64,000 nt of DNA from Candidatus Rokuibacteriota bacterium (GTDB taxonomy: Bacteria > Methylomirabilota > Methylomirabilia > Rokubacteriales > CSP1-6). Of the stretch, positions 12,718 through 35,344 are shown one piece after another (positions within the stretch are counted from its first letter, which is position 1; each line of letters opens with the position of its first letter). The notes beneath the pieces are model-generated. The model was not told where the DNA came from. It worked only from the letters and a program-made list of their open reading frames with translations, and did no database searches. A program made the translations under genes and the position numbers. The stretch is from the NCBI GenBank assembly GCA_036802765.1, contig DAIRVP010000001.1, positions 2,153 to 66,152 on the forward strand, given 5' to 3'.

Positions 12718-12723
12718 CGCGCG

Positions 12724-12757
12724 GGCCAGCGCGCGCAAGATTACGCGCGCGCTGGCC
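12724..12757 (+). terminator. GC-rich perfect 13-bp stem-loop directly after paralog A
   Basis: ggccagcgcgcgc / aagattac / gcgcgcgctggcc. No U-tract. Confidence 0.45.
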
Positions 12758-15305: not shown

Positions 15306-15323
15306 GTCGGTCGTACGCGCCGT
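15291..15323. repeat. Short tandem duplication (tcgtacgcgccgt x2, 20-nt period) spanning the MBL stop
   Basis: tcgtacgcgccgtaagtcgg tcgtacgcgccgtcgg. Confidence 0.5.
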
Positions 15324-15339
15324 CGGAGGAGGATCGCTC

Positions 15340-19536: not shown

Positions 19537-20202
19537 ATGACGACCCCGCGCTCGCGCATCATCGCGAGCAGTGACCTCGGCTGGCAGGAATTCCGGCCTG
19601 GCATCAGCTTCAAAATTTTGTGGGAAGACCCCGCCACGAAACGGCGGGCGCAGATGACGCGCTTCGCGCCGGGCGCCCGGCTGCCTCAGCATCGGCACCT
19701 CGGGGACGAGCTGATCTTCGTCATCGAGGGCGCGCTGACCGACGAGGCGGGAACGGTCACCGCCGGCAACGTCGTGTACCGGCCCAACGGGTGCATCCAC
19801 AACGTCTCGACGCAGAACGGCGCGACGGCCCTCGCCGTGCTCACCGGCGACATCGAGCCGACCGACGACGCGGCCGGCGCGGCGCGCTCGCAGATCGTCA
19901 CGCTGAGCGAGCGGCCGTGGGTCGACGCGCGCCCGGGCGTGCGCCAGAAGCGGATCTGGGAGGACAAATCCACCGAGCGCCGCGCGATTCTGGCGCGCTT
20001 CGAGCCGGGTGCGAAGCTCCCGCTGCATCGTCACGTCGGCGACGAGCTGATCTTTCTGCTCGAGGGCTCCAATGCGGACGAATCGGGCGTCGTGGCCACC
20101 GGCAACCTGAACTACCGCCCGAACGGCTGCGTCCACAGCGTGACGACCCAGAACGGCGCAACGGTATTCGCCGTCGTCTGGGGTCATACAGAACCGGTCT
20201 GA
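19537..20202 (+). CDS. Tandem-cupin protein (ChrR-like cupin domains)
   Basis: Two repeats of ...RF.PGA.LP.HRH.GDELIF..EG...DE.G....GN..YRPNGC.H. Confidence 0.7.
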   Translation: MTTPRSRIIASSDLGWQEFRPGISFKILWEDPATKRRAQMTRFAPGARLPQHRHLGDELIFVIEGALTDEAGTVTAGNVVYRPNGCIHNVSTQNGATALAVLTGDIEPTDDAAGAARSQIVTLSERPWVDARPGVRQKRIWEDKSTERRAILARFEPGAKLPLHRHVGDELIFLLEGSNADESGVVATGNLNYRPNGCVHSVTTQNGATVFAVVWGHTEPV

Positions 20203-20213: not shown

Positions 20214-21281
20214 ATGGAGATTCCACGCACGATGAAGGCGACCGTCCTCGTCGCGCCGCACCGCTTCGAGCTGCAAGAGCGGCCCGTGCCGGTGCCCGGC
20301 GACGAAGACGTGCTCGTTCGCGTGCGCGCCTGCGGCGTCTGAGGCACAGATCTGAAAATCATCCACACCGGCATGCCCCAGATGCCGCCGTACGGCGAGT
20401 TCATCTTCGGGCACGAGTACGCGGGCGACGTCGTTGCCATCGGCCGGACCGTGGACGAGTTTCAGGTCGGCGACCGGGTGGTCGTCGAGGCGCACATGGG
20501 CTGCCGTCGCTGCGAGAACTGCATTCGTGGCCTGTACACCGCGTGTCTGAACTACGGCAACGCCAAGCGCGGACACCGCGCGAACGGCTTCACCACCAAC
20601 GGCGGGCTCGCGGAATACGCCGTGAACCACGTCAACACGCTCTATCGGATCCCCGAGGGCGTCTCGTACGAAGAAGCGACGGTCGTGATGACGTCCGGCA
20701 GCCCGCTGTTCGGTCTCGAGAACGCCGGCGGATACTTTGCCGGTGAGACCGTGGCTGTGCTCGGGCCCGGACCGATCGGGCTGATGGCGATCCAGCTGGT
20801 GAAGGCGCTCGGCGCGACGCGCGTGATCCTGACCGGCACGCGAGCCTCGCGGCTGGCCATGGGGCGTCAGCTCGGCGCCGATGTGATCGTGAACAGTCGC
20901 GAGCAAGATCCGATCGAGGCGGTGATGACGGCGACCGGTGGCAAGGGCGCCGACCTCGTCATCGACTGTGCGGGCGCCGACGAGACGTTCGATCAGTCGC
21001 TGAAGATGACGAAGTCGGGCGGCAAGGTGCTGCTCGTCGCGTTCTATCACGGCCCGGTGACCGCCGACGTCAGTCACGCTGTACGCCGCAACGTGACGAT
21101 CTACACCGAGCGCGGCGAGGGCGGCACCAGCGTGGGGCGCGCGCTCGCGCTGCTGGCGGCCGGTCGCCTCACCGCCAAGCCGCTGATCACGCACCAGTTC
21201 CCGCTCTCCCGCGTGCACGAGGCGTTCGACGTGCTCGAAAAACGGATCGGCGATCCTCTGAAAGTCGTTCTCAATCCGTGA
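20214..21281 (+). CDS. Zn-dependent alcohol dehydrogenase (MDR family) with an in-frame TGA at 20340-20342 replacing the catalytic Zn-ligand Cys (candidate Sec or nonsense)
   Basis: ORFs 20214..20342 and 20373..21281 share one frame. Read-through gives VRVRACGV-U-GTDLKIIHTG...GHEYAG...CRRCENC. RBS GAGGAG. Confidence 0.6.
20369..20387 (+). other. Weak hairpin (6-bp stem ccggca(u)/a(u)gccg... loop gccccag) 27 nt after the ADH UGA
   Basis: Seen in the sequence. There is no U in the loop. Less SECIS-like than the other two. Confidence 0.2.
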
Positions 21282-22222
21282 GGCGTGCGCTCGGGCTCGC
21301 CGCCCTCCTGCTGCTGGCAGCAGTCGCGCCGGCGACGGCGTTTCCCGACAAGCCGCTCGAGCTGACCGTGCTCTTCGGGGCCGGCAGCGCCGCGGACCTG
21401 CTCGCGCGCAAGCTCGCGGAGCTCGCTGGGCGCGACCTCGGCCAGCCCGTGGCGGTCGTGAATCGCACCGGCGCCGGCGGCGCGCTCGGGTACACCTACG
21501 TGAAGAGCCAGCCCGCCGACGGCCACGCGCTGGTGTGGAACAGCAACAGCGTCAGCACCGCCTATCACGCCGGCAACATGAAGCTCGACTACAACGCATT
21601 CGCCGGCGTGGCGACGTTGACGAGCGAGCCGGTGTCGCTGGCGGTCAAAGCGGATGCGCCGTGGAAGGCCATCCGCGAGCTGCTCGCGCATGCGAAGGCG
21701 CATCCGGGTCAGGTGCGCATCGGCAACTCGGGCCGCGGCAGCTTCACGCATCTCGTCGCCGTCGCGCTGGAGAACCGCGCCGGCGTCAAGCTGACTCATG
21801 TGCCGTTCGGCCGCGAGCTCGCGGTGACGACGGTGCTCGGCGACAAGATCGAGGCGAGCGTGCAGCTGCCCGCGGAGATCATGGCGCAGATCACCGGCCG
21901 ACAGGTCCGGGTCCTGGCGGTGAGCGGCAACAAGCGCCTCGCCTCCCTGCCCGACGTGCCGACGCTCAAAGAATCCGGCGTCGATCTCACGATGACGCTG
22001 TGGCGGGGCGTGGCGGTGCCGAAGGGCACGCCTCCGGCCGTGATCGTGCGGCTCGAGCGCGCGTTCACACAGGCAGCGCAGAGCGCCGAGTTCCGCGACT
22101 TCGCGACGCGCATGGGCGCCGTCGTCGACGTGCGCGGCGCGGCCGACTTCGATGCGTTCATCGCGCGCGACGACCGCGAGATCGCCGCGCTAATGGAGCA
22201 GATCGGGCTCAGGAAGCAGTAG
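21278..22222 (+). CDS. tctC: Tripartite tricarboxylate transporter substrate-binding protein TctC
   Basis: Bug/TctC family. GTG overlaps the ADH stop. Confidence 0.85.
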   Translation: MRRALGLAALLLLAAVAPATAFPDKPLELTVLFGAGSAADLLARKLAELAGRDLGQPVAVVNRTGAGGALGYTYVKSQPADGHALVWNSNSVSTAYHAGNMKLDYNAFAGVATLTSEPVSLAVKADAPWKAIRELLAHAKAHPGQVRIGNSGRGSFTHLVAVALENRAGVKLTHVPFGRELAVTTVLGDKIEASVQLPAEIMAQITGRQVRVLAVSGNKRLASLPDVPTLKESGVDLTMTLWRGVAVPKGTPPAVIVRLERAFTQAAQSAEFRDFATRMGAVVDVRGAADFDAFIARDDREIAALMEQIGLRKQ

Positions 22223-22224
22223 CG

Positions 22225-22692
22225 GTGGGCCGCGACCGCTGGAGCGCGGCCGGGCTCGCACTGCTGGCCATCATGTATCTCCTCGTCGCCCGGCGTTATC
22301 CCCTCGACACGCTCGCCACGCCAGGCCCGGGCGTCATCCCGCTGATCGCGGGAGTCGCGCTGCTCGCGACGGCGATCTGGCTGTTGATCGTCGCGAGAAC
22401 CGCGAGGCCGGCTCGTGATGTGGGCGGCCTGAGCGGGAGCGGCGCGGCTCCGACACGCCCGATCGAATCGGTGCCTGTTCTCAGGTCGCCGTTCGTGCTG
22501 ACCGCGGCGCTCATCCTCTACGCGGCGCTGCTTCCGCGACTCGGGTTCATCGCCTCCTCGTTCGCACTCGTCGTGCTCGCCTCGCGGCTCATGGGCGCGC
22601 GTGGCTGGTGGCGTCCCGTCGTGCTCGGGCTCGGCGTTGCCGCCACCGCTTACCTGCTCTTCGCGCGCTGGCTCGGCGTGCCGCTGCCGTGA
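22225..22692 (+). CDS. tctB: Tripartite tricarboxylate transporter TctB (small membrane subunit)
   Basis: 4-TM 155-aa protein between tctC and tctA. GTG start. Confidence 0.6.
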   Translation: MGRDRWSAAGLALLAIMYLLVARRYPLDTLATPGPGVIPLIAGVALLATAIWLLIVARTARPARDVGGLSGSGAAPTRPIESVPVLRSPFVLTAALILYAALLPRLGFIASSFALVVLASRLMGARGWWRPVVLGLGVAATAYLLFARWLGVPLP

Positions 22693-24167
22693 GCGAGCTC
22701 TTCGTCGCGCTGACACCGGCGAATCTGCTCGCGTGCTTCGTCGGCACGGTGCTCGGCACGATCGTCGGCGTGCTGCCCGGGCTCGGGCCCGCCGGCGCGA
22801 TGGCCCTGGTGCTGCCGCTCACGATCAAGCTAGGGCCGACGGCCGGTCTGATCATGCTCGCCGGCATCTATTACGGCGCGATGTACGGCGGCTCGACGAC
22901 GTCGATCCTCGTCAACGTGCCCGGCGAGGCGGCGAGCGTCGTGACCACGATCGACGGGTATCGCCTTGCGCGAAAAGGCCGCGCCGGTGCCGCGCTCGCC
23001 ATCGCTGCGATCGCGTCGTTCGTCGCGGGCACGATCAGCGTCGTCGCGCTGCAAGTCGCCGCGCCGTTCGTCGCTCGGGCGGCGCTCGCGTTCGGTCCCG
23101 CGGAATATTTCGCCTTCGCACTGCTCGGTCTCGTGCTGCTCGCGAATCTCACCGGCGGCTCGCGCGCGAAATCGCTCGCGATGGTGCTCACCGGTCTCAT
23201 GCTGTCCACGGTCGGCATGGACCCGCTGGGCGGCACGGTGCGGTTCACGTTCGATCTGGCCGGCGCGCAGGCCGGGCTCAGCTTCGTCGCCGTCACGACG
23301 GGACTCTTCGGTGTCGCCGAGGTGCTTGCGAGCATGGCCGAGCCGGCGGCAAGCAGCGCCGTCGCCCGCGTGCGCTTCCGCGATCTCTATCCGAACCGCG
23401 AGGAGCTGCGTCGCTCGGTGCCGCCGATGCTGCGCGGCACCGTGCTCGGCTTTCTCGTCGGCCTCGTACCGGGACCGGCCGCGACGATCGCGTCGTTCGT
23501 GTCGTACGGCATCGAAAAAAAGGTAAGCAGACATCGTCGCGAGCTCGGCACCGGCGCCATCGAAGGCGTCGCCGGCCCCGAGGCGGCGAACAACGCGGCC
23601 GCCGGTGGCGGGATGATTCCACTACTCTCGCTCGGGCTGCCGTTCACGCCGTCGACGGCGGTGCTGCTGAGCGGGATGCTGCTGATGAGCGTGACGCCGG
23701 GGCCCTTTTTGTTGCGCGACCATCCGAGCGTTTTCTGGGGCGTGATCGGATCCTTCTACGTCGGCAACGTGATGCTGCTCCTGCTCAACCTGCCGCTGGT
23801 CGGCGTCTTCGCGCGCGTCGCCACGATTCCGCCGAAGTATCTGATGCCCGGCGTGCTCGTGCTCTGCGCGGTGGCCGCGTACTCGGACAACAACAACATC
23901 TTCGACGTGTGGGTCATGGTCGTCGCGGGCATCGCCGGCTGGGCGATGCGCGCGCTCGATTTCTCTCCCGCGCCGCTGGTGCTCGGACTCGTGCTCGGCC
24001 CGGTGCTCGAGCGCTCACTGCTGCAGGCGCTGACGATCGCGCGCGGCGAGGTCCGCGGCCTGTGGGCATCGGGCCCCGCCGCGGTCATGCTGGCGGCCGC
24101 CGTGGTCGCCTTCGTCGCGCCGGGTCTCGTGGCGCTGGTCCGCCGAAGCGCCACGCGGACGACTTAG
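22689..24167 (+). CDS. tctA: Tripartite tricarboxylate transporter permease TctA
   Basis: Polytopic membrane protein. GTGA overlap with tctB. Confidence 0.85.
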   Translation: MSELFVALTPANLLACFVGTVLGTIVGVLPGLGPAGAMALVLPLTIKLGPTAGLIMLAGIYYGAMYGGSTTSILVNVPGEAASVVTTIDGYRLARKGRAGAALAIAAIASFVAGTISVVALQVAAPFVARAALAFGPAEYFAFALLGLVLLANLTGGSRAKSLAMVLTGLMLSTVGMDPLGGTVRFTFDLAGAQAGLSFVAVTTGLFGVAEVLASMAEPAASSAVARVRFRDLYPNREELRRSVPPMLRGTVLGFLVGLVPGPAATIASFVSYGIEKKVSRHRRELGTGAIEGVAGPEAANNAAAGGGMIPLLSLGLPFTPSTAVLLSGMLLMSVTPGPFLLRDHPSVFWGVIGSFYVGNVMLLLLNLPLVGVFARVATIPPKYLMPGVLVLCAVAAYSDNNNIFDVWVMVVAGIAGWAMRALDFSPAPLVLGLVLGPVLERSLLQALTIARGEVRGLWASGPAAVMLAAAVVAFVAPGLVALVRRSATRTT

Positions 24168-24197: not shown

Positions 24198-24593
24198 GTG
24201 AATCGTCGGCTCATCAGCTCAGGCTCGACATTCGAACGAGAGATCGGTTACTCGCGAGCGGTCGTCGATGGCGAATGGGTGTTCGTCTCGGGGACGACCG
24301 GCTACGACTACCAGGCGATGACGATTTCGGACAACCTGCTCGAGCAAACCGAGCAGTGCTTGCGCAACATCAAATCTGCGCTCGAGCAGGCCGGCGCCTC
24401 CTTTGCGGACGTCGTGCGCGTCACCTACATCCTCCCTCGGAGCGACGACTTCCCGGCGTGCTGGCCCGTCCTCCGGAAATATTTCGGTGACGTTCGACCG
24501 GCGGCGACGATGATTTCGGCGGGGCTGGCCGACCCCAGGATGCGGATCGAGATCGAAGTCACGGCGCGCCGTCGGGCGGCGGCGGTGGTATAA
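24198..24593 (+). CDS. ridA: RidA/YjgF-family reactive-intermediate deaminase
   Basis: 131 aa, GTG start, RBS AAGGAGG. Confidence 0.8.
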   Translation: MNRRLISSGSTFEREIGYSRAVVDGEWVFVSGTTGYDYQAMTISDNLLEQTEQCLRNIKSALEQAGASFADVVRVTYILPRSDDFPACWPVLRKYFGDVRPAATMISAGLADPRMRIEIEVTARRRAAAVV

Positions 24594-24602
24594 GTCGGGA
24601 CC

Positions 24603-26288
24603 ATGACAAGCGCAGAGCCCATGTACGACGTTGTCTGGCCGCTCGCCCCGTCCGCCGCACCGCCGGGATCACTCGCGGCGCGTTCCCAGGATCTTCGCGG
24701 CAAAACCGTCGGTGAGCTATGGGATTACCTGTTCAAGGGCGAGGAGATCTTTCCCCTCATCCGAACGGCGCTCGAGGCCCGCTATCCCGGTATCCGCTTC
24801 GTCGAGTTCGAGACCTTCGGCTCGACGCACGGCCGCGACGAGAAAGAGCTCGCAGCGACGCTGCCCGGACTGCTGCGCCAGCACGGCTGCGACGCGGTGA
24901 TCTCCGCCGTCGGCGCCTGAGGATCGTGCACGCCCGCCGTGTTGCGGGCCGCCGCGATCGCCGAGCGCGCCGGAGTGCCGAGCGTCTCTATCGTCACGAC
25001 ACCGTTCATGCAGCAGGCCGCGGTCGTGTCCAAGGGCGTCGGCCTGCCGTCGCTGCCGATCGCTGAGTACCCCGGCGTGCCGATGACCGACGGCTCGGAC
25101 GCCGTCGCACGAAAGATCGACGCGCTGTTGCCACAGATCGTGGCGGGCCTCGCCGGCGCCCGCGACGTCGTGCGCACCGCAGTCGCCGAGCCGGGGCCGC
25201 GCGACATCGTGGCGCGTGGCACGCTCGACGAGGTCCAGGAGCTCTATCACCGCAATCTTTGGAGCGACGGGCTGCCGGTGATTCCCCCGACGATCGACCG
25301 CGTCGAGCGCTTTCTCGCTCAAACGCGGCGCGCACCAGACGAAGTGATCGGACGGCTGCTGCCCGAGAACCGTGCGGCCACCGTCTGGAGCATCGCGGTC
25401 AACGGCGTCATGGCAGGCTGCCGGCCCGAATACATGCCGGTCCTCGTTGCTATCGTGGAAGCCATCGCGGAGCCGATCTTCCGCGTCGAGGACGCCGGCT
25501 CGACGCCGGGCTGGGAGCCGCTCGTGATCGTGAGCGGCCCCATCGCCAGGCGTCTCGACCTCAATCACGGTCAGGGCGTGATGCGTGTGGGGCGCCAGGC
25601 CAACACGAGTCTCGGTCGCTTCTTGCGGCTCTACCTTCGCAACGTCGCGGGGCTGCGAATTCCGCCCGGCGCGGGCGACAAGGGCGGCATCGCGGCCTCG
25701 TTCAACGTGGCGCTGGCCGAAGACGAAGACGCCGCTGCCGCGCTGGGATGGCCGACGTTCGGCGCGGACCAAGGCTTCACGCGCGACGACAGCGTGGTCA
25801 CCGTGCAGAGCGTGGTGAGCATCAGCCCGCCGATCTACTCCGCCGGCACGCGCGCGCTCGAGCATGCGCGCATCCTCGCCGAGGTGTTCGGCGGCGCGTG
25901 CAGCTACTGGTCGTCGATCGGCATGAAGTACGCGCGCTGGGAGCCGCTGCTCGTGCTGGGCCCGTCGATCGCGCGTGTGATCGCCGACGACGGCTGGTCG
26001 AAGGACGATCTGCGCCGTTACCTCCACGAGCACGTGACGATCACCGCACGCCAGGCCGAGACGTATGCGCTGCAGGTCGGCGCAACGTCGTTCACGCTCG
26101 ACGCCCACGTCAAGGCCGGCGTGCTGCCCGCCTCCTACGCGACGTCCAGCGATCCGGAACGCGCGGTGCCGGTGTTCGTGCAGCCGGAGAAGATCGGGAT
26201 TCTCGTCGCCGGCGATCCCGGCCGCAATCAGTCCAAAGGCTACGTCAACAACCACATTCAGGGTGGCCGCATCAGCAAGAGGGTTTGA
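24603..26288 (+). CDS. Candidate selenoprotein with a U-G-S-C motif (in-frame TGA 24918-24920) and a long C-terminal domain of unknown function
   Basis: ORFs 24603..24920 and 24939..26288 share one frame. GC3 bias is continuous through the whole 561 codons. Context reads ...HGCDAVISAVGA-U-GSCTPAVLRAAAIAERAGVPS... Confidence 0.55.
24932..24949 (+). other. SECIS-like hairpin (gcccgc / CGUGUU / gcgggc) starting 12 nt after the UGA
   Basis: Seen directly. GU in the apical loop. Confidence 0.45.
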
Positions 26289-26289
26289 T

Positions 26290-26796
26290 ATGGATGCCAA
26301 TGCGAAGAAAACCGCGCTGCGAATGATTCCGTACGGCCTCTACGTCCTCACCGCCGCAGACAAGAGCGGCGGCCGCGTGGCCGCCGGCACCGTGAACTGG
26401 GTGACGCAGGTCGCGTTCGAGCCGCCGCTGGTCGTCGTCGGCGTGAAGACGGACTCGCACGCGCATCCACTCATCAAGGAAACGAAGGCGTTCGCGCTGA
26501 ACGTGCTCGGCAAGGGTCAGCAGGCGATGGCATTCACATTCTTCAAACCGGCCGAGCTCGCCGGCGACACCGTCTCCGGTCAGCCATTTCGTCGCGGCAC
26601 GACGGGGGCGCCGATTCTGAGCAACGCGCCGGCCTTCGTCGAGTGCACGCTCGAGACGACCGTCGAACAAGGCGATCACTCGATCTTCGTCGGCCGCGTC
26701 GTCGAGGCCGGGGTGGCGAAGGCGCCGGACGGGCGACCCGATGACGCCACGCTGTGGCTGCGCGATCTCGGCGACAAGGTTTTCTACGGAGGCTAG
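26290..26796 (+). CDS. Flavin reductase-like (FMN-binding split-barrel) protein
   Basis: MDANAKKTALRMIPYGLYVLTA... Start overlaps the upstream stop. Confidence 0.8.
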   Translation: MDANAKKTALRMIPYGLYVLTAADKSGGRVAAGTVNWVTQVAFEPPLVVVGVKTDSHAHPLIKETKAFALNVLGKGQQAMAFTFFKPAELAGDTVSGQPFRRGTTGAPILSNAPAFVECTLETTVEQGDHSIFVGRVVEAGVAKAPDGRPDDATLWLRDLGDKVFYGG

Positions 26797-26800
26797 GCGC

Positions 26801-28327
26801 ATGAGGCACGTCATGAGAGTCCTGCTCGGTGCGGCGCTCGTCGTCGCGCTGGTGCCGGTGGTCGGCCTCGCCGCCGAAGGCGAGCTGCGTTATGGCCTGC
26901 ACGTCACCGTTCCCGCCAAGTGGCTGGACCCCGGGGAAACCGAGGCCTTCAGTACGCCGTACATGGTGCTTTACGCCGTTCACGACGCGCTGGTGAAGCC
27001 GATGCCGGCCGGCATGACCACGCCGAGCCTTGCGGAATCCTGGAATGAATCGAAAGACCATCTGACCTACACGTTCACGCTGCGCAAGAACGCCAAGTTC
27101 CACGACGGCTCGCCAGTGACCGCCGAGGACGCGAAGTTCTCGTTCGAGCGTTACAAGGGCGCCTCCGCCACGCTGCTGAAGGAAAAGGTCAAAGAGGTTC
27201 AGGTTGTCTCGCCGGGCCAGGTGCGAGTCGTCCTCAAAGAGCCGTGGCCCGACTTCATGCTCTTCTACGGCACCACCGCCTCCGGCGCCGGCTGGATCGT
27301 GCCGAAGCACTACGTCGAGAAGGTCGGCGACGACGGGTTCAAGCGCGCGCCGATCGGCGCCGGTCCGTACAAGGTCGTCTCGTTCTCGCCCGGCGTCGAG
27401 CTGGTCCTCGAGGCGTTCGACGGCTATTGGCGAAAGGCTCCGAGCATCAAGCGGCTCGTCATGCGCACAATGACGGAAGAGAGCACCCGTGCGGCCGCGG
27501 TCAAGCGCGGCGAGGTCGATCTCGCGTATCTCTTCGCCGGACCCGTGGCCGAAGAGCTGAAGCGCACGCCGGGCATCAAGCTGGAGGCGCCCCTGCTCAC
27601 CGGCGCCTTCTGGCTCGAGCTGCCGGAGCAGTGGGACCCGAAATCACCGTGGCACGACCGGCGCGTGCGGCTGGCCGCCAGCCACGCCATCGATCGCGCC
27701 GCCATCAATCAGGCCGAAACGCTGGGATACTCGAAGCTCAACGGCTCGATCGTGCCGCGCATCTTCCAGTTCGCGGTGCCGGTCGAGCCCCCGGCCTACG
27801 ACCCGGCCCGCGCGAAGAAGCTTCTGGCCGAAGCCGGATATCCCAACGGCTTCGACGCGGGAGACTTCTATCCGTTTCCCCCGTACAACTCGATGGCGGA
27901 GGCGATCCAGGGCTACCTGCAGGCGGTCGGGATCAGGAGTCGTCTGCGCGCGATGGAGCGCGCGGCGTACTTTGCCGCGTGGCGGGAGAAGAAGCTGCAC
28001 GGCATCATCCTCGTCATCACGTCGGTCATGGGGAACGCGGCCACGCGTCTGGAACCGTACGCGACCAAGCAGGGCGTCTACGCCTACGGTTCGCTGCCAG
28101 AGATCGACGATCTCTTCTACCGTCAGGCCAAGGAGGTGGACGTCAAGAAGCGCGAGGCGCTCGTGCAGCAAATGCAGAAAATCATGACCGAGCACGTCTT
28201 GAACGTTCCCATCTACGATCTCGCATTCATCTGGGCCGTCGGTCCGCGCGTCGAGGTCAGCGGCGCCAACGCGATTCCCGGCTTTCCGTACTCGGCGCCG
28301 TTCGAGGATCTGAAGCTGAAGAAATGA
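26801..28327 (+). CDS. ABC transporter substrate-binding protein, family 5
   Basis: Signal peptide. RBS GGAGG. Confidence 0.85.
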   Translation: MRHVMRVLLGAALVVALVPVVGLAAEGELRYGLHVTVPAKWLDPGETEAFSTPYMVLYAVHDALVKPMPAGMTTPSLAESWNESKDHLTYTFTLRKNAKFHDGSPVTAEDAKFSFERYKGASATLLKEKVKEVQVVSPGQVRVVLKEPWPDFMLFYGTTASGAGWIVPKHYVEKVGDDGFKRAPIGAGPYKVVSFSPGVELVLEAFDGYWRKAPSIKRLVMRTMTEESTRAAAVKRGEVDLAYLFAGPVAEELKRTPGIKLEAPLLTGAFWLELPEQWDPKSPWHDRRVRLAASHAIDRAAINQAETLGYSKLNGSIVPRIFQFAVPVEPPAYDPARAKKLLAEAGYPNGFDAGDFYPFPPYNSMAEAIQGYLQAVGIRSRLRAMERAAYFAAWREKKLHGIILVITSVMGNAATRLEPYATKQGVYAYGSLPEIDDLFYRQAKEVDVKKREALVQQMQKIMTEHVLNVPIYDLAFIWAVGPRVEVSGANAIPGFPYSAPFEDLKLKK

Positions 28328-30423
28328 GCTATTCGCTCGGCATCGACATCGGCGGCACGTTCACCGACATCGTCGTCTACGACCACGCGCGCGGCCGACA
28401 GTACAGCCGCAAGCTGCTGACCACGCACGACGACCCTGCGCGCGCCGTCGCCACCGGCGTCGACGGATTGCTGCGTCGCCATCGCCTGCCCGCTCGGGAC
28501 TTCACGCGCGTGGTGCACGCCACCACGCTGTTCACCAACGCGCTGATCGAGCGCCGTGGTGCCGTCACGGGACTCATCACCACCACGGGCTTTGCCGATG
28601 CGCTGGAAATCGGCCGCGAGCGGAAGTTCGAGCTCTACGACCTCAATATCGTGAAGCCCGAGCCGCTCGTGCCGCGAAATTTGCGAGCAGAGGTGCGCGA
28701 GCGCCTGAGAGCCGACGGATCGGTGGAGCGACGGCTCGACGCGCGGGAGGTGGCGGCCCGCGCGAAGTCGCTCGTCGCCGCGGGTGTGACGTCCATCGCC
28801 ATCGTGTTCCTGCATTCGTATGCGAACCCGCGTCACGAGGCCGAGGCGGCACGCGTCATCGCCCGCCGCCACCGCGGCGTGTCGGTCACCACATCGCACG
28901 AGGTCGCGCCGGAGATCCGCGAATACGAGCGGGCATCGACGACGGTCGCCAACGCGTACATCAAGCCGCTGGCCCGCCAGTATCTCGACGCGATGGCCCG
29001 ACGCGTGGCCGCGCTGGGCATCCCGGCGCCGCTGCTGCTGATGCTCTCGAGCGGTGGGCTGACGCACGTGGCCGAAGCCGAACGCACACCGGTGCAGATG
29101 CTCGAGTCCGGCCCGGCCGCCGGCGCGCTTGCCGCTGCGTTCTTCGGCCGCGAGGACAGCCGCGGCAACCTGCTCGCCTTCGACATGGGCGGGACGACGG
29201 CGAAGCTGTCACTCGTGGACGGCGGCGAGCCGCTGACCGCCTACGCCTTCGAGGCCGCGCGACAGAAACGGTTCATGGAAGGCAGCGGGCTGCCGATCCG
29301 GATCTCGACCATCGAGCTCATCGAGATCGGCGCCGGCGGCGGTTCCATCGCGTCCGTCGACGAGATCGGGCTGCTCAAGGTCGGCCCGCGCAGCGCCGGA
29401 TCACACCCGGGTCCGGCGTCCTACGGCCTCGGAGGCGCCGAGCCGACGGTGACCGACGCGGACTTCCTGCTCGGTTACCTCAATCCCGAGTACTTCGCGG
29501 GCGGCGAAGTGCGCGTCGACATCGACGCCGCGCGCCGAGCCATCGACCGGCTCGCCAAGCAGGTGGGTCTCCCGCAGACGGACGTCGCGTGGGGCATCCA
29601 CGACGTCGTCAACGAGAACATGGCCTCCGCCGCGCGCGTGCACGTCGCCGAGCGCGGCCGCGATCCGCGGGATTACGCCTTGCTCTGCACGGGCGGCGCC
29701 GGTCCGGTGCACGCGTGGGGCGTCGCGCGCAAGCTCGGCCTGCACCAGATTATCTGCCCGCCGGCCGCGGGCGTCGCGTCCGCCCTTGGTCTGCTCGTCG
29801 CGCCCGCGCGGGTCGATCGCATGGCCACGGTCGGCATCCGGCTCGACCGCGACAGTCCCGTGGCGCTGGAAGACGCGTTCCAGCGATTGGAAGAGGAGGC
29901 CCGCGCGGTGATGGCAGACACGGGACTGAAGCTCGAAACCGCGACCGTCACGCGCCTGGCCGACGGGCGGTTTCTCGGACAAGGCTTCGATCTCGTCGTC
30001 GATCTGCCGCCGGGCCCGTACATGGACAACACGGAGAGTCGGCGACGACTGGCCGACGCGTTCGAAGCGGCGTATCGCGACAAGTTCGCGCTCACACCGC
30101 CCGACGTGCCGATCGAGTTCATCAACATCCGCGTCGCCGTGCGAGCCCCGGTCGCGGGCGCCGACGTCACCGTCCATGGCGAGACGGCGGACGGCGGCCG
30201 CGCGGTGAAAGGCGCGCGCCCGGCGTACTTCGCCGAGCGCCGCGGCTTCGTCGACACCACGGTGTACGACCGTGGTCGCCTGGTGTCGGGCGACGAGGTG
30301 CGCGGGCCGGCGGTCGTCGAGGAAGAAGGCTCGACGCTGGTCATCGGGCCCGGCGGGGTCGCGCGCGTGGCGCCGAGCGGCAATCTCGTCGTGACGCTCC
30401 CCGACCCGGAGTCGCGACCATGA
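28324..30423 (+). CDS. hyuA: Hydantoinase/oxoprolinase A subunit (HyuA family)
   Basis: MSYSLGIDIGGTFTDIV... ATGA overlap. Confidence 0.85.
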   Translation: MSYSLGIDIGGTFTDIVVYDHARGRQYSRKLLTTHDDPARAVATGVDGLLRRHRLPARDFTRVVHATTLFTNALIERRGAVTGLITTTGFADALEIGRERKFELYDLNIVKPEPLVPRNLRAEVRERLRADGSVERRLDAREVAARAKSLVAAGVTSIAIVFLHSYANPRHEAEAARVIARRHRGVSVTTSHEVAPEIREYERASTTVANAYIKPLARQYLDAMARRVAALGIPAPLLLMLSSGGLTHVAEAERTPVQMLESGPAAGALAAAFFGREDSRGNLLAFDMGGTTAKLSLVDGGEPLTAYAFEAARQKRFMEGSGLPIRISTIELIEIGAGGGSIASVDEIGLLKVGPRSAGSHPGPASYGLGGAEPTVTDADFLLGYLNPEYFAGGEVRVDIDAARRAIDRLAKQVGLPQTDVAWGIHDVVNENMASAARVHVAERGRDPRDYALLCTGGAGPVHAWGVARKLGLHQIICPPAAGVASALGLLVAPARVDRMATVGIRLDRDSPVALEDAFQRLEEEARAVMADTGLKLETATVTRLADGRFLGQGFDLVVDLPPGPYMDNTESRRRLADAFEAAYRDKFALTPPDVPIEFINIRVAVRAPVAGADVTVHGETADGGRAVKGARPAYFAERRGFVDTTVYDRGRLVSGDEVRGPAVVEEEGSTLVIGPGGVARVAPSGNLVVTLPDPESRP

Positions 30424-32030
30424 GCGCGCGGCTGGATGCGGTCACGCTCGAAGTGTTGTGGACGCGCATCATCTCGGTCGTCGACGAGGCGGCCAAGGCG
30501 ATCGTGCGGACGTCATTCTCCACGCTGTCCAACGAGGCGAACGACTTCGCGTGCGTGCTGACCGACGCGCGGGGCCGCGCGCTCGCCCAGAACACCGGCT
30601 CCATCCCGTCGTTCATCGGCACGCTGCCGGCGACCGTGCGCCACTTCATCCGCGAGCTCGGCGTCGACTCGATGAAGCCGGGTGACGTGCTGATCACCAA
30701 CGACGCGTGGATGGGCACCGGCCATATGAGCGACGTCTCGGTGCTCAAACCCATCTTCCATCGCGACCGTCTCGTCGCCTTCTCGGCGACGACGTCGCAC
30801 ATGCCGGACATCGGCGGTCGCATCCGGGCCATCGAGGCGCGCGAGATCTTCGAGGAAGGTCTGCACATCCCGCTGGCGCGCCTGAGGCGCGATGGCCGCG
30901 TGGACGACACACTGGTCGCGCTGATTCGCGCCAACGTTCGCACGCCCGACCAGACGATGGGAGACATCTGGGCGCAGGTGAGCGCCAATGAGCTGATGGA
31001 GCGCCGCGTGCGGGCGCTGATGGACGATTACCATCTCGACACGCTGGAGACGCTCGGGGACGAGCTCTTCAGCCGCTCGGAGCGCGCGATGCGCGACGCG
31101 ATCCGCGCCGTGCCGGATGGCACGTATCGTTATGGCTTTCGCACCGACGGCACCGGCGCGCCCTTCGAGTTCAAGATCGCGCTCACGGTGAAGGGCGACG
31201 AGATCATTGCCGACTACACGGGCACCTCGCCGCAGCAGCCGCGCGCCATCAATTGCGTGATGGCCTACACGTACGCGATGACGGCGTACGCGGTGCGGTG
31301 CGTGCTGCTGCCGGGGCTGCCGAACAACGAGGGCATGTACCGGCCGATTACCGTCGAAGCGCCCGAAGGCTCCATCCTGAACCCGCGCTTCCCCGCCGCG
31401 GTGGTGAGCCGCGCCACCACGGGCCACTACGTGCCCGCGCTCGTGCTCGGCGCTCTGCATCGCGTGATCCCCGATCGCGTGATGGCGGGCGTCGGCTCGC
31501 CGCTGTGGGCGCTGAGCCTGTCCAGCACACGCGCCGACGGCAAGCCCTACACGACGGTGCTGTTCTTCAACGGCGGGATGGGCGCCACGCCGCTCAAGGA
31601 CGGCGAAAACGTGCTGTCGTGGCCCAGCAACATCTCGTCGACGCCGGTCGAGGTCGCCGAGCGCCAGAGCCCGCTCTTCTTCCACTACAAGCGGCTGCGC
31701 CCGAGCTCAGGCGGAGCCGGCCGCTTCCGCGGCGGCCTCGGTCAGGACATTTCGATCGAGAGCCGCTCGGCGCGGCCGATGGTGCTCAGTGTGATGGCCG
31801 AGCGCACGGCGTACCCGGCGCCTGGTCTCGCCGGCGGTGCCGCCGGCGGCTTGGGCGACGTGCAAATCAACGGTCGCCGCATCGACAACCGCAGGCAGCA
31901 CATTCTCGAGCGCGGCGATCGCGTGCTCGTGCGCACACCTGGCGGGGGCGGCTACGGCCCACGGCGGCAGCGCAGCAAAAATCTGATCGCGCGGGATCGT
32001 GCGCTGGGCTATGTGACCCGCGGCCGCTGA
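30420..32030 (+). CDS. hyuB: Hydantoinase/oxoprolinase B subunit (HyuB family)
   Basis: ATGA overlap with hyuA. HyuB signature regions. Confidence 0.85.
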   Translation: MSARLDAVTLEVLWTRIISVVDEAAKAIVRTSFSTLSNEANDFACVLTDARGRALAQNTGSIPSFIGTLPATVRHFIRELGVDSMKPGDVLITNDAWMGTGHMSDVSVLKPIFHRDRLVAFSATTSHMPDIGGRIRAIEAREIFEEGLHIPLARLRRDGRVDDTLVALIRANVRTPDQTMGDIWAQVSANELMERRVRALMDDYHLDTLETLGDELFSRSERAMRDAIRAVPDGTYRYGFRTDGTGAPFEFKIALTVKGDEIIADYTGTSPQQPRAINCVMAYTYAMTAYAVRCVLLPGLPNNEGMYRPITVEAPEGSILNPRFPAAVVSRATTGHYVPALVLGALHRVIPDRVMAGVGSPLWALSLSSTRADGKPYTTVLFFNGGMGATPLKDGENVLSWPSNISSTPVEVAERQSPLFFHYKRLRPSSGGAGRFRGGLGQDISIESRSARPMVLSVMAERTAYPAPGLAGGAAGGLGDVQINGRRIDNRRQHILERGDRVLVRTPGGGGYGPRRQRSKNLIARDRALGYVTRGR

Positions 32031-32168: not shown

Positions 32169-33032
32169 GTGGCGAGCTTGTTGCTCTCACACACGCGCAT
32201 GCTCAATCTGAAATTCGTCATCGTCACCTCTGGTCGTCTCCCCGAAGCCTACTTCCTCGCATTCCACCTCGACTCGCGCAGGCAGCAATTCGCGATCGTC
32301 GACGTTGCTCGCCCTGCGGGCAGTTATCTGAACGTGCTGCGCCGGCTGCGTCGCTCGCGCGGCGCCCTGTATGTTGCCGATCTGCTGCTGGCGCGGCTGA
32401 CGGATCGGCTGCTGACCCCGATCGTGCGGCCCACGCTACCGCCGGGCTCCAGCGCCTTTCCCGAAGTCGACGCTGGGCGCATCGAACACATTCTCGCTCG
32501 GCACCCGCACATCGAGTGCACGGATCCTCACGCGCCCGAGGTGCTCGACTTCGTGCGCACGTTCGGCCCCGACTACATCCTGCTCGCCGGGTGCCCAATT
32601 CTGAAAGAGTGCTTCTACGGCCTTGCGCGCCGTGGCGCGCTGAACCGCCATCTGGGAATGCTGCCGGAGTTCCGGGGAGCGGACTGCCCATGGTGGGCCT
32701 TCGCGCTCGAGCAGCCCGACCGCGCCGGCTACTCGATCCACGTGGTCAGCGAGCGCGTGGACGCCGGCGACGTCGTGCTCCGGCGATGTGTGGCCGTTCA
32801 GGACGAGCCTTCGTTGCCTCGTTATCTGCGCCGACTCCGTCGCGAGGCGTCGCAAGCGTTCGTGGAGGTCGTCGATCAACTCCTTCACGGTGCGCCGCTG
32901 TCCAGCGAGCCGCAGAACGGCGCGGGACGCTACTATCCGCCCGCGGGACTCGTGACGCAGTTGCGTGCGTGCCGCAGCTACGCCCGCATCCTCCGCTCAG
33001 CGTCCCTGACGCTCACCCCAAAACGCGCGTGA
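32169..33032 (+). CDS. Formyltransferase-family protein (Formyl_trans_N-like)
   Basis: ...ILLAGCPILKE... and HPS-like motifs. The start may be at 32199. Confidence 0.55.
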   Translation: MASLLLSHTRMLNLKFVIVTSGRLPEAYFLAFHLDSRRQQFAIVDVARPAGSYLNVLRRLRRSRGALYVADLLLARLTDRLLTPIVRPTLPPGSSAFPEVDAGRIEHILARHPHIECTDPHAPEVLDFVRTFGPDYILLAGCPILKECFYGLARRGALNRHLGMLPEFRGADCPWWAFALEQPDRAGYSIHVVSERVDAGDVVLRRCVAVQDEPSLPRYLRRLRREASQAFVEVVDQLLHGAPLSSEPQNGAGRYYPPAGLVTQLRACRSYARILRSASLTLTPKRA

Positions 33033-34157: not shown

Positions 34158-34372
34158 GAGTGCCCTCCCAGATCCGGAATGGACAGCACCAGATGCAGCG
34201 ACCCACCGAGCTCGTTCAGTCGTCGCGGGTTCCAGCGCACGAACGCGGCGCGCTCCTCGTCGGTCAGCTCGGCCGCGCTCAGCGCGTCGGCCGGATCGCG
34301 GCGGAAGCGCTCGCGAAAGGCGGCGTCCTTCTTGAGCCGGTACAGCAGCACGTTGACGTCGTAACGGCTCAT
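34154..34372 (-). CDS. LigA-like small subunit of a class III extradiol dioxygenase
   Basis: 72 aa MSRYDVNVLLYRLKKDAAFRERFRRDPADALSAAELTDEERAAF... Confidence 0.55.
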   Translation of the reverse strand: MSRYDVNVLLYRLKKDAAFRERFRRDPADALSAAELTDEERAAFVRWNPRRLNELGGSLHLVLSIPDLGGHS

Positions 34373-35211: not shown

Positions 35212-35344
35212 CTCAGAACGTGGGGGGCCCCGACATGGCCCCCCAAATTGACCGAGCGAAGGGGCTACGCCCCCTCGGCCTCCCCGGCCAGCGCTCGTCC
35301 CGGCCCGGCAAAGCCGTGCCGGGCCTCGATCCGCGCTGCATCAC

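What the first reader, a model, noticed from the sequence alone, without database searches (positions are those of the whole stretch)
24198..32030. RidA - UGSC selenoprotein candidate - flavin reductase - SBP5 - HyuA - HyuB: a co-directional catabolic block (possible N-heterocycle or cyclic-amide utilisation)
Seven co-oriented genes have overlapping or near-abutting boundaries (ATGA/TGATG-type overlaps at 26290, 28324 and 30420). HyuA/HyuB-type ATP-dependent hydantoinase/oxoprolinase subunits sit beside a peptide/opine-type binding protein. A racemase-like Sec protein and a flavin reductase lie upstream. Hydantoin racemases belong to the Asp/Glu/hydantoin racemase fold to which the UGSC N-domain loosely resembles. 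No permease or ATPase genes accompany the SBP.
Basis: inference. Interest (0 to 1): 0.6.

Follow-up and report, generated by a model that had tools for sequence, protein, structure and literature searches.

The report
Selenoprotein gene beside a lactam-hydrolase operon
The genes are as described and one is a genuine selenocysteine protein of unknown function, but its link to the neighbouring ring-opening amidase holds only in very close relatives, so the block is a lineage-specific arrangement of known families and not a demonstrated pathway.

Summary
The gene content is confirmed: Rid-family protein, UGSC selenoprotein, flavin reductase, SBP5, HyuA and HyuB, all on the + strand from 24198 to 32030. 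SBP5/HyuA and HyuA/HyuB share ATGA overlaps. The co-directional run starts earlier, with cupin, Zn-ADH and a complete TctC-TctB-TctA transporter from 19537.

The UGSC gene is a real selenoprotein gene. Its TGA aligns with TGA in 61 of 76 homologous loci and with Cys codons in 15. A GU-loop hairpin follows the TGA in the Sec loci.

UGSC-SBP5-HyuAB synteny holds only in orthologues of at least 85% identity. Homologues at or below 74% lack it, and HyuAB orthologues at 85-86% occur without UGSC.

The "racemase-like" idea is not supported. The N-domain is a generic flavodoxin/Rossmann-like fold. In relatives it weakly but consistently matches the PrdB/GrdB reductase selenoproteins.

The 370-aa C-domain has no Pfam or NCBIfam match and no PDB neighbour. 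Its family-wide partners are paralogues, thioredoxin-reductase-like genes and TctC.

HyuAB keeps the ATP and Zn motifs of ATP-dependent lactamases; its substrate is unknown.

The parts
19537..20202 (+). ChrR-type cupin gene; first gene of the co-directional run
   Evidence: Pfam Cupin_7 E=1.6e-40. A divergent NIPSNAP gene lies upstream at 18737-19354.
20373..21281 (+). Zn-dependent alcohol dehydrogenase family gene. The true start is probably upstream of 20373.
   Evidence: ADH_zinc_N and ADH_N. NCBIfam profiles match only from about position 57 onward.
21278..22222 (+). TctC (Bug-family) periplasmic binding protein of a tripartite tricarboxylate transporter
   Evidence: PF03401 E=3.8e-49
22219..22692 (+). 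TctB small membrane subunit
   Evidence: PF07331 E=1.6e-20
22608..24167 (+). TctA large permease subunit. The start is uncertain; the Pfam match begins at residue 40 of this ORF.
   Evidence: PF01970 E=2.1e-150
24198..24593 (+). Rid (YjgF/RidA) family protein that lacks the catalytic Arg of RidA
   Evidence: PF01042 E=1.8e-24. TIGR00004 scores 64 bits against a cutoff of 106.
24603..26288 (+). One 561-aa UGSC-family selenoprotein. It consists of an N-terminal Sec domain (aa 10-183) and an uncharacterised C-terminal domain of about 370 aa.
   Evidence: The two ORFs share a frame. PF24696 scores 98.7 bits. Full-length Cys forms of about 573 aa exist. The C-domain has no Pfam or NCBIfam match.
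24918..24920 (+). TGA read as selenocysteine (Sec106), in the motif U-G-S-C
   Evidence: The aligned codon is TGA in 61 and TGC/TGT in 15 of 76 homologous loci.
24922..24959 (+). SECIS-type hairpin. Lower stem 24922-24928/24953-24959; upper stem 24932-24937/24944-24949; apical loop CGUGUU.
   Evidence: Folds. A hairpin sits at the same place in the Sec loci, with a different sequence in the divergent subfamily. Mean dG is -13.9 in Sec loci against -7.1 in Cys loci, p=9e-9. Column covariation is modest.
26290..26796 (+). NAD(P)H:flavin reductase-like gene; a variable insert between UGSC and SBP5
   Evidence: PF01613 E=2.1e-35. Present in L086 and L092. Absent in L081, L087 and L089. L080 carries a 164-aa gene with no recorded Pfam hit in this slot.
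26801..28327 (+). Family-5 (peptide/opine/nickel type) solute-binding protein with an N-terminal signal-like hydrophobic segment and no adjacent ABC permease or ATPase
   Evidence: PF00496 E=7.7e-78. All NCBIfam equivalogs score far below cutoff. Sequence.
28324..30423 (+). HyuA: ATP-binding (ASKHA) alpha subunit of an ATP-dependent hydantoinase/oxoprolinase/lactamase
   Evidence: Three Pfam domains. CapA model 511.7 bits against a cutoff of 1000. PDB 7hk5 scores 382 bits and 6yra_A 350 bits. Motifs DIGGTFTD, DMGGT and GSHPGP are visible and match the motifs listed in PMC8453981.
30420..32030 (+). HyuB: metal-site beta subunit
   Evidence: PF02538 E=3.5e-153. CapB model 223 bits against a cutoff of 1000. 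The alignment to 6yra_B keeps residues aligned with the Asp, His-x-x-Asp and His Zn-site positions.
32169..33032 (+). Formyltransferase-domain protein. Its membership of the unit is uncertain, and it does not hit a PurU model.
   Evidence: PF00551 E=4.9e-15. Only weak PurN, Fmt and ArnA hits. Conserved after HyuB in L081 and L087.

Best explanation
The window most likely comes from a Methylomirabilota/Rokubacteria-like soil bacterium; that is where the named close homologues come from. It carries a lineage-specific, probably co-transcribed run of genes that joins two modules.

Module A: SBP5-HyuA-HyuB. The three genes are translationally coupled through ATGA overlaps. A periplasmic family-5 binding protein captures a small N-containing cyclic compound. 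After import, the two-subunit enzyme activates the ring amide with ATP at the ASKHA site of HyuA. It then hydrolyses the ring at the Zn site of HyuB, as caprolactamase, N-methylhydantoinase and eukaryote-type 5-oxoprolinase do. The enzyme class is shown by sequence. The substrate and the transport route are inferred.

Module B: the UGSC gene. It is one 561-aa selenoprotein made by reading TGA 24918 as Sec with the help of the downstream hairpin. Its N-domain has a flavodoxin/Rossmann-like fold and places U-x-x-C at a strand-helix turn. In relatives it is distantly related to the Sec region of the selenoprotein B components (PrdB/GrdB) of the D-proline and glycine reductases. I infer that it is a selenol/thiol redox enzyme. 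In this model the new C-terminal domain holds the substrate, and the selenenyl-sulfide is re-reduced by an NAD(P)H flavoprotein. That flavoprotein is a dedicated thioredoxin-reductase-like protein in many other lineages. Here it may be the flavin reductase in the same slot, or the housekeeping thioredoxin system.

The upstream TctCBA transporter and the Rid-family protein fit the family-wide habit of UGSC-long genes to sit beside TctC. Whether modules A and B act on the same metabolite is not established.
For: Gene identities and junctions.

Sec:
- TGA/Cys alternation, 61 to 15.
- A hairpin specific to Sec loci, with GU apical loops and a different sequence at the same place in a divergent subfamily.
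- selA-selB lie next to a 58% homologue.
- All close homologues are called as split 105 + 451 aa genes.

HyuAB class:
- Pfam.
- The best NCBIfam models are CapA/CapB, matched over their full length.
- PDB N-methylhydantoinase and caprolactamase are the best solved relatives.
- The ATP motifs and Zn-ligand positions are conserved.
- HyuB is 536 aa, against the 776-aa chain that is its acetone-carboxylase counterpart, and no gamma subunit gene was seen among the annotated genes of 14.3-43 kb.

Core synteny:
- Among orthologues of at least 85% identity with enough downstream DNA, 6 of 6 have SBP5 and 4 of 4 have HyuA-HyuB, while the flanks vary.
- A non-orthologous SBP5-type ABC system also flanks HyuAB orthologues elsewhere.

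Redox model for UGSC-long:
- 24 of 37 relatives weakly hit PrdB (best E 7e-5), and 9-12 hit GrdB, GrdF or GrdH.
- A thioredoxin-reductase homologue with a CAWCDG motif lies beside UGSC-long in 22-24 loci.
- One C-domain protein is fused to a ferredoxin:thioredoxin-reductase catalytic domain.
- The domain order is reversed in P0250.
- The Cys of the MAGC(R)PEY motif is invariant in UGSC-long proteins.
Against: - The UGSC-Hyu link is seen only at 85% identity or above, where synteny is expected anyway.
- Homologues at 58-74% identity and 77 of 79 species-representative loci lack Hyu.
- HyuAB orthologues of equal divergence occur without UGSC.
- Flr and Rid are dispensable in close relatives.
- No TrxR-like gene and no C-domain paralogue is in the window.
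- The window's own protein gave no PrdB hit at E<=0.01. All PrdB/GrdB scores are far below the family cutoffs.
- The MAGC Cys is replaced by Ala in some stand-alone C-domain proteins.
- The flavin reductase has no oxygenase partner among the annotated genes of 14.3-43 kb, and its role is a guess.
- CapA/CapB equivalog cutoffs are not met, so the substrate is unknown.
- No promoter or terminator signal defines the transcription unit.
Confidence: 0.5

Rival explanations
1. There are two unrelated modules that are merely neighbours. UGSC-long, with the Rid protein and the upstream TctCBA transporter, acts on a TTT-imported carboxylate. SBP5-HyuA-HyuB is an independent cyclic-amide uptake and hydrolysis unit. 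Their adjacency in this clade is a historical accident.
For: - Across the family, the recurrent neighbours of UGSC-long are TctC (within 10 kb in 23 of 79 loci; the immediately downstream gene in 11 of 95), C-domain paralogues (40 of 165 loci) and TrxR-like genes (22-24 loci). Hyu is not among them.
- The 73% homologue sits beside a divergent TctBAC and has no Hyu.
- HyuAB orthologues occur alone or with other partners.
- The slot between UGSC and SBP5 is variable.
Against: - UGSC-SBP5-HyuA-HyuB stays contiguous in every close orthologue with enough sequence, while TctCBA, Rid, Flr and a PhoX insert come and go.
- In L081, L087 and L089, SBP5 follows UGSC directly.
- TctC genes are very abundant in Burkholderiales and Rokubacteria, so part of that association is background.
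Confidence: 0.35
2. One reading: a hydantoin or cyclic-amide pathway in which the UGSC protein is a racemase-like enzyme (Asp/Glu/hydantoin racemase fold) that feeds a stereospecific hydantoinase.
For: - HyuAB belongs to the hydantoinase/oxoprolinase family.
Against: - There is no PF01177 hit even at E<=10.
- The domain is a single alpha/beta unit with one UxxC motif. It does not have the two pseudo-symmetric domains, each with a catalytic Cys, of that racemase family (established knowledge of the family).
- Sequence similarity points instead to PrdB/GrdB.
- The link to Hyu is not conserved.
Confidence: 0.04
3. HyuA/HyuB is an ATP-dependent ketone carboxylase (acetone or acetophenone carboxylase type) and not a lactam or hydantoin hydrolase.
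For: The same superfamily is involved. The ApcC, ApcA and ApcD models and acetone carboxylase chains are hit at lower scores.
Against: - Scores are much higher for caprolactamase and N-methylhydantoinase (512 against 300 bits for alpha; 223 against 97 bits for beta).
- HyuB is 536 aa, against the 776-aa chain that is its acetone-carboxylase counterpart, and matches only that chain's residues 58-281.
- No gamma or epsilon subunit gene was seen among the annotated genes of 14.3-43 kb.
Confidence: 0.05
4. TGA 24918 is an ordinary stop codon, so the region encodes two separate proteins (105 aa and about 449 aa), or a pseudogene.
For: Public gene callers annotate the homologues as two genes. No Sec machinery or tRNA-Sec is present in the window.
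Against: - The two ORFs share a frame, and the UGSC Pfam domain spans the TGA (aa 10-183).
- Cys replaces the TGA in 15 full-length homologues.
- A conserved SECIS-type hairpin is present.
- The family is a recognised selenoprotein family (PMC2398784; PMC13188914).
Confidence: 0.02

Closest known systems
UGSC-containing selenoprotein family (Zhang & Gladyshev metagenome surveys; Pfam PF24696; NCBIfam NF041046 'UGSC family (seleno)protein')
   Same: - The motif is the same: U-G-S-C after a beta-strand, with Sec/Cys alternation and a SECIS hairpin directly downstream.
- PF24696 is matched well above its gathering score.
- A 'UGSC/Unknown_1' fusion was already reported in 2008.
- Long Cys or Sec forms are already named 'UGSC family (seleno)protein' by NCBI.
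   Different: - This is the long form, with an extra domain of about 370 aa. It scores only 57 bits on the 147-position NF041046 equivalog, whose cutoff is 125.
- I could not verify that 'Unknown_1' is this C-domain, because that figure is held only as an image.
- The family's function is unknown in the four sources that describe it.
Selenoprotein B components of the glycine, sarcosine, betaine and D-proline reductases (GrdB, GrdF, GrdH, PrdB)
   Same: - Both have a UxxC redox motif.
- 24 of 37 UGSC-long relatives show weak but consistent sequence similarity around the Sec.
- At family level, UGSC-long genes sit beside a thioredoxin-reductase gene, as grd operons do (the grd operon organisation is from established knowledge).
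- The reaction type of those enzymes, reductive C-N cleavage including ring opening of proline, would suit a catabolic N-compound context.
   Different: - All scores are far below the family cutoffs (about 15 bits against 300).
- No GrdE- or PrdA-type pyruvoyl proprotein, GrdA or GrdC/D was seen nearby.
- The partner domain is a new one.
- The hosts are largely aerobic soil and freshwater lineages, not amino-acid-fermenting anaerobes.
- The window's own protein gave no such hit at E<=0.01.
ATP-dependent caprolactamase CapAB of Pseudomonas jessenii (PDB 6YRA), with N-methylhydantoinase (PDB 7HK5) and eukaryote-type 5-oxoprolinase
   Same: - The alpha/beta architecture is the same: an ASKHA ATP subunit and a Zn subunit.
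- The ATP motifs and metal-ligand positions are conserved.
- The NCBIfam models and the PDB chains are matched over full length.
   Different: - Bit scores are well below the NCBIfam equivalog cutoffs, so the substrate need not be caprolactam or N-methylhydantoin.
- The gene order is A-B, whereas capAB is encoded B-A.
- The genes are coupled to an orphan SBP5 gene and lie next to a selenoprotein gene.
Rut pyrimidine-utilisation pathway proteins (RutC Rid-family protein and RutF flavin reductase)
   Same: A Rid-family protein and a PF01613 flavin reductase occur together in an N-heterocycle catabolic setting. Both give weak hits to the RutC and RutF models.
   Different: - Scores are 43 against a cutoff of 169, and 46 against 255.
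- No RutA, RutB, RutD, RutE or RutG is present.
- The Rid protein lacks the catalytic Arg.
- Both genes are dispensable in close relatives.

Membership tests
UGSC family (seleno)protein | Match to Pfam PF24696 above the gathering score | tested here: met
   98.7 bits against a cutoff of 25, over aa 10-183
UGSC family (seleno)protein | Match to the NCBIfam NF041046 equivalog above its cutoff | tested here: not met
   57.4 bits against a cutoff of 125. The model has 147 positions, and this protein is a long fusion form.
UGSC family (seleno)protein | In-frame TGA in a U-G-S-C motif, replaced by Cys in some homologues | tested here: met
   Sequence. The aligned codon is TGA in 61 and TGC/TGT in 15 of 76 loci.
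UGSC family (seleno)protein | Bacterial SECIS hairpin shortly after the UGA, with G/U in the apical loop | tested here: met
   The hairpin is at 24922-24959. It is conserved in position in the Sec loci and has a different sequence in the divergent subfamily. Hairpins in Cys loci are weaker, -7.1 against -13.9 kcal/mol. Column covariation is only modest, and GC content is a partial confound.
UGSC family (seleno)protein | Actual selenocysteine insertion; selABCD present in the host | not testable with these tools
   No sel genes or tRNA-Sec are in the window. A 58% homologue sits next to selA-selB.
ATP-dependent hydantoinase/oxoprolinase/lactamase (HyuAB, CapAB) | Hydant_A_N + Hydantoinase_A + Hydant_A_C in one subunit and Hydantoinase_B in the other | tested here: met
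   All matches are above the gathering scores.
ATP-dependent hydantoinase/oxoprolinase/lactamase (HyuAB, CapAB) | ASKHA ATP motifs: DxGGTxTD, DxGGT and GxxPGP | tested here: met
   DIGGTFTD, DMGGT and GSHPGP are present in the HyuA translation. The motifs are taken from PMC8453981.
ATP-dependent hydantoinase/oxoprolinase/lactamase (HyuAB, CapAB) | Zn-site residues of the beta subunit (CapB D41, H99, D101, H124) | tested here: met
   The alignment to 6yra_B shows Asp, His-x-x-Asp and His conserved at the aligned positions. The numbering of one Asp differs by one from the paper's.
Caprolactamase CapA/CapB (NCBIfam equivalogs NF050156 and NF050157) | Score above the equivalog cutoff | tested here: not met
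   511.7 and 223.3 bits, both against a cutoff of 1000
Acetone/acetophenone carboxylase | Extra gamma (and epsilon) subunits, a long metal-binding subunit of 684-776 aa, and scores above the equivalog cutoffs | tested here: not met
   Apc models score 300, 181 and 97 bits against cutoffs of 1250-1500. HyuB is 536 aa. No gamma subunit was seen among the genes annotated in 14.3-43 kb.
Asp/Glu/hydantoin racemase (proposed for the UGSC N-domain) | Sequence match to the family (PF01177) | tested here: not met
   No hit at E<=10
Asp/Glu/hydantoin racemase (proposed for the UGSC N-domain) | Specific fold similarity (two pseudo-symmetric alpha/beta domains, each with a catalytic Cys) | tested here: not met
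Reductase selenoprotein B (GrdB/PrdB family) | Score above the family cutoffs | tested here: not met
   P0071 scores 15.4 bits against a cutoff of 300 on the PrdB model. The best E among 37 relatives is 7.1e-5.
Reductase selenoprotein B (GrdB/PrdB family) | Homology of the Sec-containing region | tested here: inconclusive
   24 of 37 relatives hit PrdB and 9-12 hit GrdB, GrdF or GrdH at E<=1. The matched stretch, P0071 78-132, brackets the CGTC motif. The window's own protein gave no hit at E<=0.01. A profile-profile test could not be run.
Reductase selenoprotein B (GrdB/PrdB family) | Partner pyruvoyl proprotein (GrdE/PrdA) and GrdA/GrdCD encoded nearby | tested here: not met
   None were found among the annotated window genes or among the recurrent neighbours.
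RidA imine deaminase | TIGR00004 cutoff and the catalytic Arg105 | tested here: not met
   64.3 bits against a cutoff of 106.25.
ABC importer with a family-5 binding protein | Cognate permease and ATPase genes adjacent to the binding-protein gene | tested here: not met
   No BPD_transp_1 or ABC_tran gene lies within 19.5-37.5 kb. The nearest BPD_transp_1 gene is at 41196-42086, next to a different SBP type.
Tripartite tricarboxylate transporter (TTT) | TctC, TctB and TctA genes together | tested here: met
   PF03401, PF07331 and PF01970 in consecutive genes over 21278-24167

The most novel reading that the evidence does not exclude
UGSC-long proteins may be a widespread, so far unrecognised class of selenocysteine-dependent reductases in aerobic soil and freshwater bacteria. 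In this reading they are distant relatives of the Stickland-type selenoprotein B (PrdB/GrdB). The Sec/Cys pair would be recycled by a dedicated thioredoxin-reductase-like, FTR-like or flavin-reductase partner. It would reductively cleave a C-N (or C-X) bond of a carboxylate substrate held by a structurally new 370-aa domain. In this clade the enzyme would work downstream of the ATP-dependent ring-opening amidase on the same N-heterocycle.
Probability: 0.2. Interest if true: 0.8.

Novelty: new member of a known kind. Interest (0 to 1): 0.45.

Why it matters
UGSC-containing proteins are among the most abundant selenoproteins in aquatic metagenomes and have had no assigned function since about 2005-2008. 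This locus gives a concrete, clonable context: a TTT transporter, an SBP5 and an ATP-dependent lactamase.

The family-wide comparison gives testable leads:
- Weak PrdB/GrdB relatedness of the Sec domain.
- Dedicated thioredoxin-reductase-like neighbours.
- A fusion of the C-domain to an FTR catalytic domain.
- Paralogue arrays.
- A C-terminal domain family of at least 4,000 50%-identity clusters with no Pfam model and no solved structural neighbour.

If the reductase reading holds, Stickland-type selenium chemistry would extend into aerobic heterotrophs. If it does not, the block is simply another uncharacterised HyuAB operon.

Tried and rejected
- Rfam gathering scan of the whole window: no hits, so no annotated SECIS or riboswitch.
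- ARAGORN: no tRNA, including no tRNA-Sec.
- Sigma-70 promoter and intrinsic-terminator scan over 18.5-34.5 kb: no promoter-like sites, and terminator-like sites not clearly above shuffles. It is uninformative for operon limits.
- Folding 24910-24990 alone: z = -1.17 against shuffles. It is not significant by itself in 68% GC DNA, so I relied on comparative evidence.
- Column-wise covariation of the hairpin: paired cells and the covariation score exceed the shuffles, but slid controls are similar. The divergent subfamily's hairpin is shifted by one register.
- PDB profile search with the UGSC-long alignment: only chance-level hits.
- The AFDB50 Foldseek library was unavailable.
- Figure S1A of the GOS paper is held only as an image, so the identity of 'Unknown_1' could not be checked.
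- PurU assignment for 32169-33032: rejected. Only generic formyltransferase models hit, and weakly.
- A search for a C-domain paralogue or a TrxR-like gene in the window found none.

Full report
**1. What is in the sequence**

The window is about 68% GC. ORF listing, third-position GC and HMM scans agree on a continuous run of + strand genes. They are listed here in order:
- ChrR-type cupin, 19537-20202
- Zn-alcohol-dehydrogenase family, 20373-21281
- TctC, 21278-22222
- TctB, 22219-22692
- TctA, ending at 24167
- Rid family, 24198-24593
- UGSC protein, 24603-26288
- Flavin reductase, 26290-26796
- SBP_bac_5, 26801-28327
- HyuA, 28324-30423
- HyuB, 30420-32030
- Formyltransferase-domain protein, 32169-33032

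SBP5/HyuA and HyuA/HyuB overlap by ATGA. UGSC and Flr abut (TGA-T-ATG) without overlapping. It misses the complete TTT transporter that ends 30 nt before the Rid gene.

The genes downstream on the opposite strand are a MetE-like protein, LigB, a Zn-ADH and an EamA transporter. The genes upstream are an MBL-fold hydrolase, a second orphan SBP5, an MR/MLE enolase-superfamily enzyme and a divergent NIPSNAP gene.

**2. The UGSC gene is a genuine selenoprotein gene**

ORFs 24603-24920 and 24939-26288 are in the same frame. They are separated by TGA 24918-24920, and the next codons read G-S-C. The Pfam UGSC domain spans the TGA, covering aa 10-183.

A search of 5.8 billion proteins gave 4,535 relatives. 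The closest are about 450-aa fragments that start just after the TGA. Cys forms of about 573 aa are full length, and some are named 'UGSC family (seleno)protein' by NCBI.

In 76 homologous loci from genomes and metagenomes, the aligned codon is TGA in 61 and TGC/TGT in 15.

A hairpin follows the TGA at 24922-24959, with the apical loop CGUGUU:
- A hairpin sits at the same position in the 59 other Sec loci that were folded. A divergent subfamily has a hairpin of different sequence there (GUCGUGGAGUxUCCACGAC), and all apical loops contain GU.
- Hairpin stability is -13.9 kcal/mol in Sec loci against -7.1 in Cys loci (p=9e-9). GC content partly confounds this comparison.
- Column-wise covariation is only modest.

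One 58% homologue sits next to selA-selB. The family is an established selenoprotein family. The four sources that describe it give no function for it.

**3. What the UGSC-long protein looks like**

*The C-terminal domain.* The last 370 aa or so match no Pfam or NCBIfam model. Searched alone against 1.84 billion cluster representatives, the domain finds 4,079 proteins at E<=1e-3. These include:
- stand-alone forms of about 350 aa
- tandem-duplicated forms
- a form with the domain order reversed, C-domain then UGSC
- one fusion to a ferredoxin:thioredoxin-reductase catalytic domain

*Structure.* AF2 models are confident. The window's residues 107-561 give pLDDT 85, and a full-length Cys homologue gives pLDDT 89 with pTM 0.90.

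*Sequence relatedness.* 24 of 37 relatives weakly hit the PrdB model (best E 7e-5), and 9-12 hit the GrdB, GrdF and GrdH models. In P0071, the member whose coordinates were reported, the match covers the stretch that brackets the Sec-equivalent Cys. The window's own protein gave no such hit at E<=0.01. I treat this as a lead, not as membership.

**4. Neighbourhoods**

*Close orthologues (at least 85% identity).*
- All six with enough downstream DNA have SBP5.
- All four with more than 3 kb downstream have HyuA-HyuB.
- The flanks vary. The upstream transporter is TctCBA or a TRAP system. Rid is present or absent.
- The slot between UGSC and SBP5 holds a flavin reductase, a 164-aa gene with no recorded Pfam hit (L080), or nothing.
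- A PhoX gene is inserted between HyuA and HyuB in L080, and a gap of similar size is seen in L089.

*More distant homologues.* At 73%, 63% and 58% identity there is no Hyu or SBP5. The neighbours there are TctBAC, TctC with a molybdo-hydroxylase, and selAB with TctC. Among 79 species-representative loci (29-62% identity):
- HyuA/B occur within 10 kb in 2, non-adjacent and on the opposite strand.
- Flr and Rid occur in none.
- TctC occurs in 23.

*HyuAB without UGSC.* HyuAB orthologues at 85-86% identity occur without UGSC. One sits next to an MBL hydrolase. Another sits next to a complete Dpp-type ABC system whose SBP5 is only 26% identical to the window's.

*Recurrent partners of UGSC-long across the family.*
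- A stand-alone paralogue of the C-domain is the immediately downstream gene in 16 of 95 loci. At least one extra copy lies within 10 kb in 40 of 165 loci.
- TctC is the immediately downstream gene in 11 of 95 loci.
- A thioredoxin-reductase homologue with a CAWCDG motif is adjacent in 22-24 loci. It matches PDB thioredoxin reductases at E=3e-49.

None of the last two kinds of gene is in the window.

**5. HyuAB and the small genes**

HyuA carries the ASKHA phosphate and adenosine motifs. HyuB keeps the residues aligned with the Zn ligands of caprolactamase CapB. The best curated models are CapA/CapB, but both score far below their cutoffs. The best solved relatives are a fused N-methylhydantoinase and caprolactamase. 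The acetone and acetophenone carboxylases score much lower, and no gamma subunit gene was seen nearby. The class, an ATP-dependent cyclic-amide hydrolase, is well supported. The substrate is not identified.

It also falls below the RidA and RutC cutoffs. The flavin reductase resembles the reductase components of two-component monooxygenases, below all cutoffs. No oxygenase partner was seen among the annotated genes of 14.3-43 kb.

**6. Interpretation**

The best reading is a lineage-specific gene run that joins two modules. One is an SBP5-HyuAB module for uptake and ring opening of a cyclic amide. The other is a genuine Sec-dependent redox protein of unknown substrate, with a TTT transporter upstream.

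The thioredoxin-reductase-like and FTR-like partners, the UxxC motif and the PrdB/GrdB-like signal all point to a selenol/thiol redox cycle feeding chemistry in the new C-domain. In this clade a flavin reductase sometimes occupies a position next to UGSC comparable to that of TrxR-like genes in other lineages.

Functional coupling of the two modules is possible, because the four core genes stay contiguous while the flanks change. It is not demonstrated, because synteny at 85% identity or above is weak evidence and disappears beyond it. The main rival is that the two modules are independent neighbours. The racemase idea, a carboxylase function and an ordinary stop codon are each unlikely.

**7. 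Novelty**

Every gene belongs to a named family. The UGSC family, and a UGSC fusion to an unknown domain, were reported in 2008. The block itself is therefore a new member of known kinds. Four leads may be new:
- The weak PrdB/GrdB relationship.
- The conserved TrxR-like, paralogue and TctC partners.
- The FTR fusion.
- The absence of any structural neighbour for a very large domain family.

I rate interest as moderate.

Noticed in passing
window 14292-16893: An MBL-fold hydrolase gene is followed by a second orphan SBP_bac_5 gene that is 25% identical to the one in the block. HyuAB orthologues in L166 are themselves followed by an MBL-fold gene, so an MBL/SBP5/HyuAB theme may recur in this lineage.
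   Followed up: partly
window 32997-36439 (- strand): A MetE-like (Meth_synt_2) gene, a 211-nt gap that could hold a LigA-like small subunit, LigB (class III extradiol dioxygenase) and an NDMA-dependent-type Zn-ADH. The set, including LigA, is conserved convergent to HyuB in L081 and largely so in L080; L087 and L089 retain MetE-like (and, in L089, LigB) at their ends. It looks like an aromatic ring-cleavage module.
   Followed up: partly
L085 4051-7483: selB and selA are encoded divergently, immediately upstream of a 58%-identical UGSC-long gene. A 302-aa pyridine-nucleotide disulfide oxidoreductase lies next to them.
   Followed up: partly
P0223 (494 aa; cluster representative): A stand-alone C-domain is fused to a ferredoxin:thioredoxin reductase catalytic beta-chain domain (PF02943, E=1e-16). 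The same region also weakly hits the NCBIfam 'FtrB family double-selenoprotein' model.
   Followed up: partly
L019, L024-L029, L048, L143 and others (about +70 to +2300 after the UGSC-long stop): There is a conserved three-gene order in a 40-45%-identity subfamily: UGSC-long, a stand-alone C-domain paralogue of about 390 aa, then a thioredoxin-reductase-like gene with a CAWCDG motif.
   Followed up: yes
P0250, P0236-P0238, P0191, P0197: The C-domain family shows a reversed domain order (C-domain then UGSC), proteins of 709-741 aa with two or three matched stretches, and proteins of more than 1,200 aa carrying pentapeptide or copper-amine-oxidase N-terminal domains.
   Followed up: partly
L080 15556-16884 (- strand): A PhoX-like gene is inserted on the opposite strand between HyuA and HyuB. 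This breaks the ATGA coupling seen in the window. L089 shows a HyuA-HyuB gap of similar size.
   Followed up: no
window 8851-12740: Two adjacent peroxiredoxin-type genes (Redoxin; AhpC-TSA), a rhodanese gene and a Rieske/LigXa-like oxygenase on the minus strand. The rhodanese and the Rieske oxygenase are also upstream of the UGSC locus in a 77-kb relative.
   Followed up: no
window 16899-17993 and 18737-19354: An MR/MLE enolase-superfamily gene (PDB 3msy, E=3.5e-100) and a divergent NIPSNAP gene. In L081, NIPSNAP lies directly upstream of the Rid gene, so cupin-ADH-TctCBA is an insertion here or a deletion there.
   Followed up: partly
window 20373-21281: The listed start of the Zn-ADH gene is probably too far downstream, because family profiles align only from about position 57. 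The true start is likely near 20210.
   Followed up: no
window 47430-48413: A ChrB-type chromate-resistance regulator gene, preceded by aldo/keto reductase and TauD-family dioxygenase genes.
   Followed up: no
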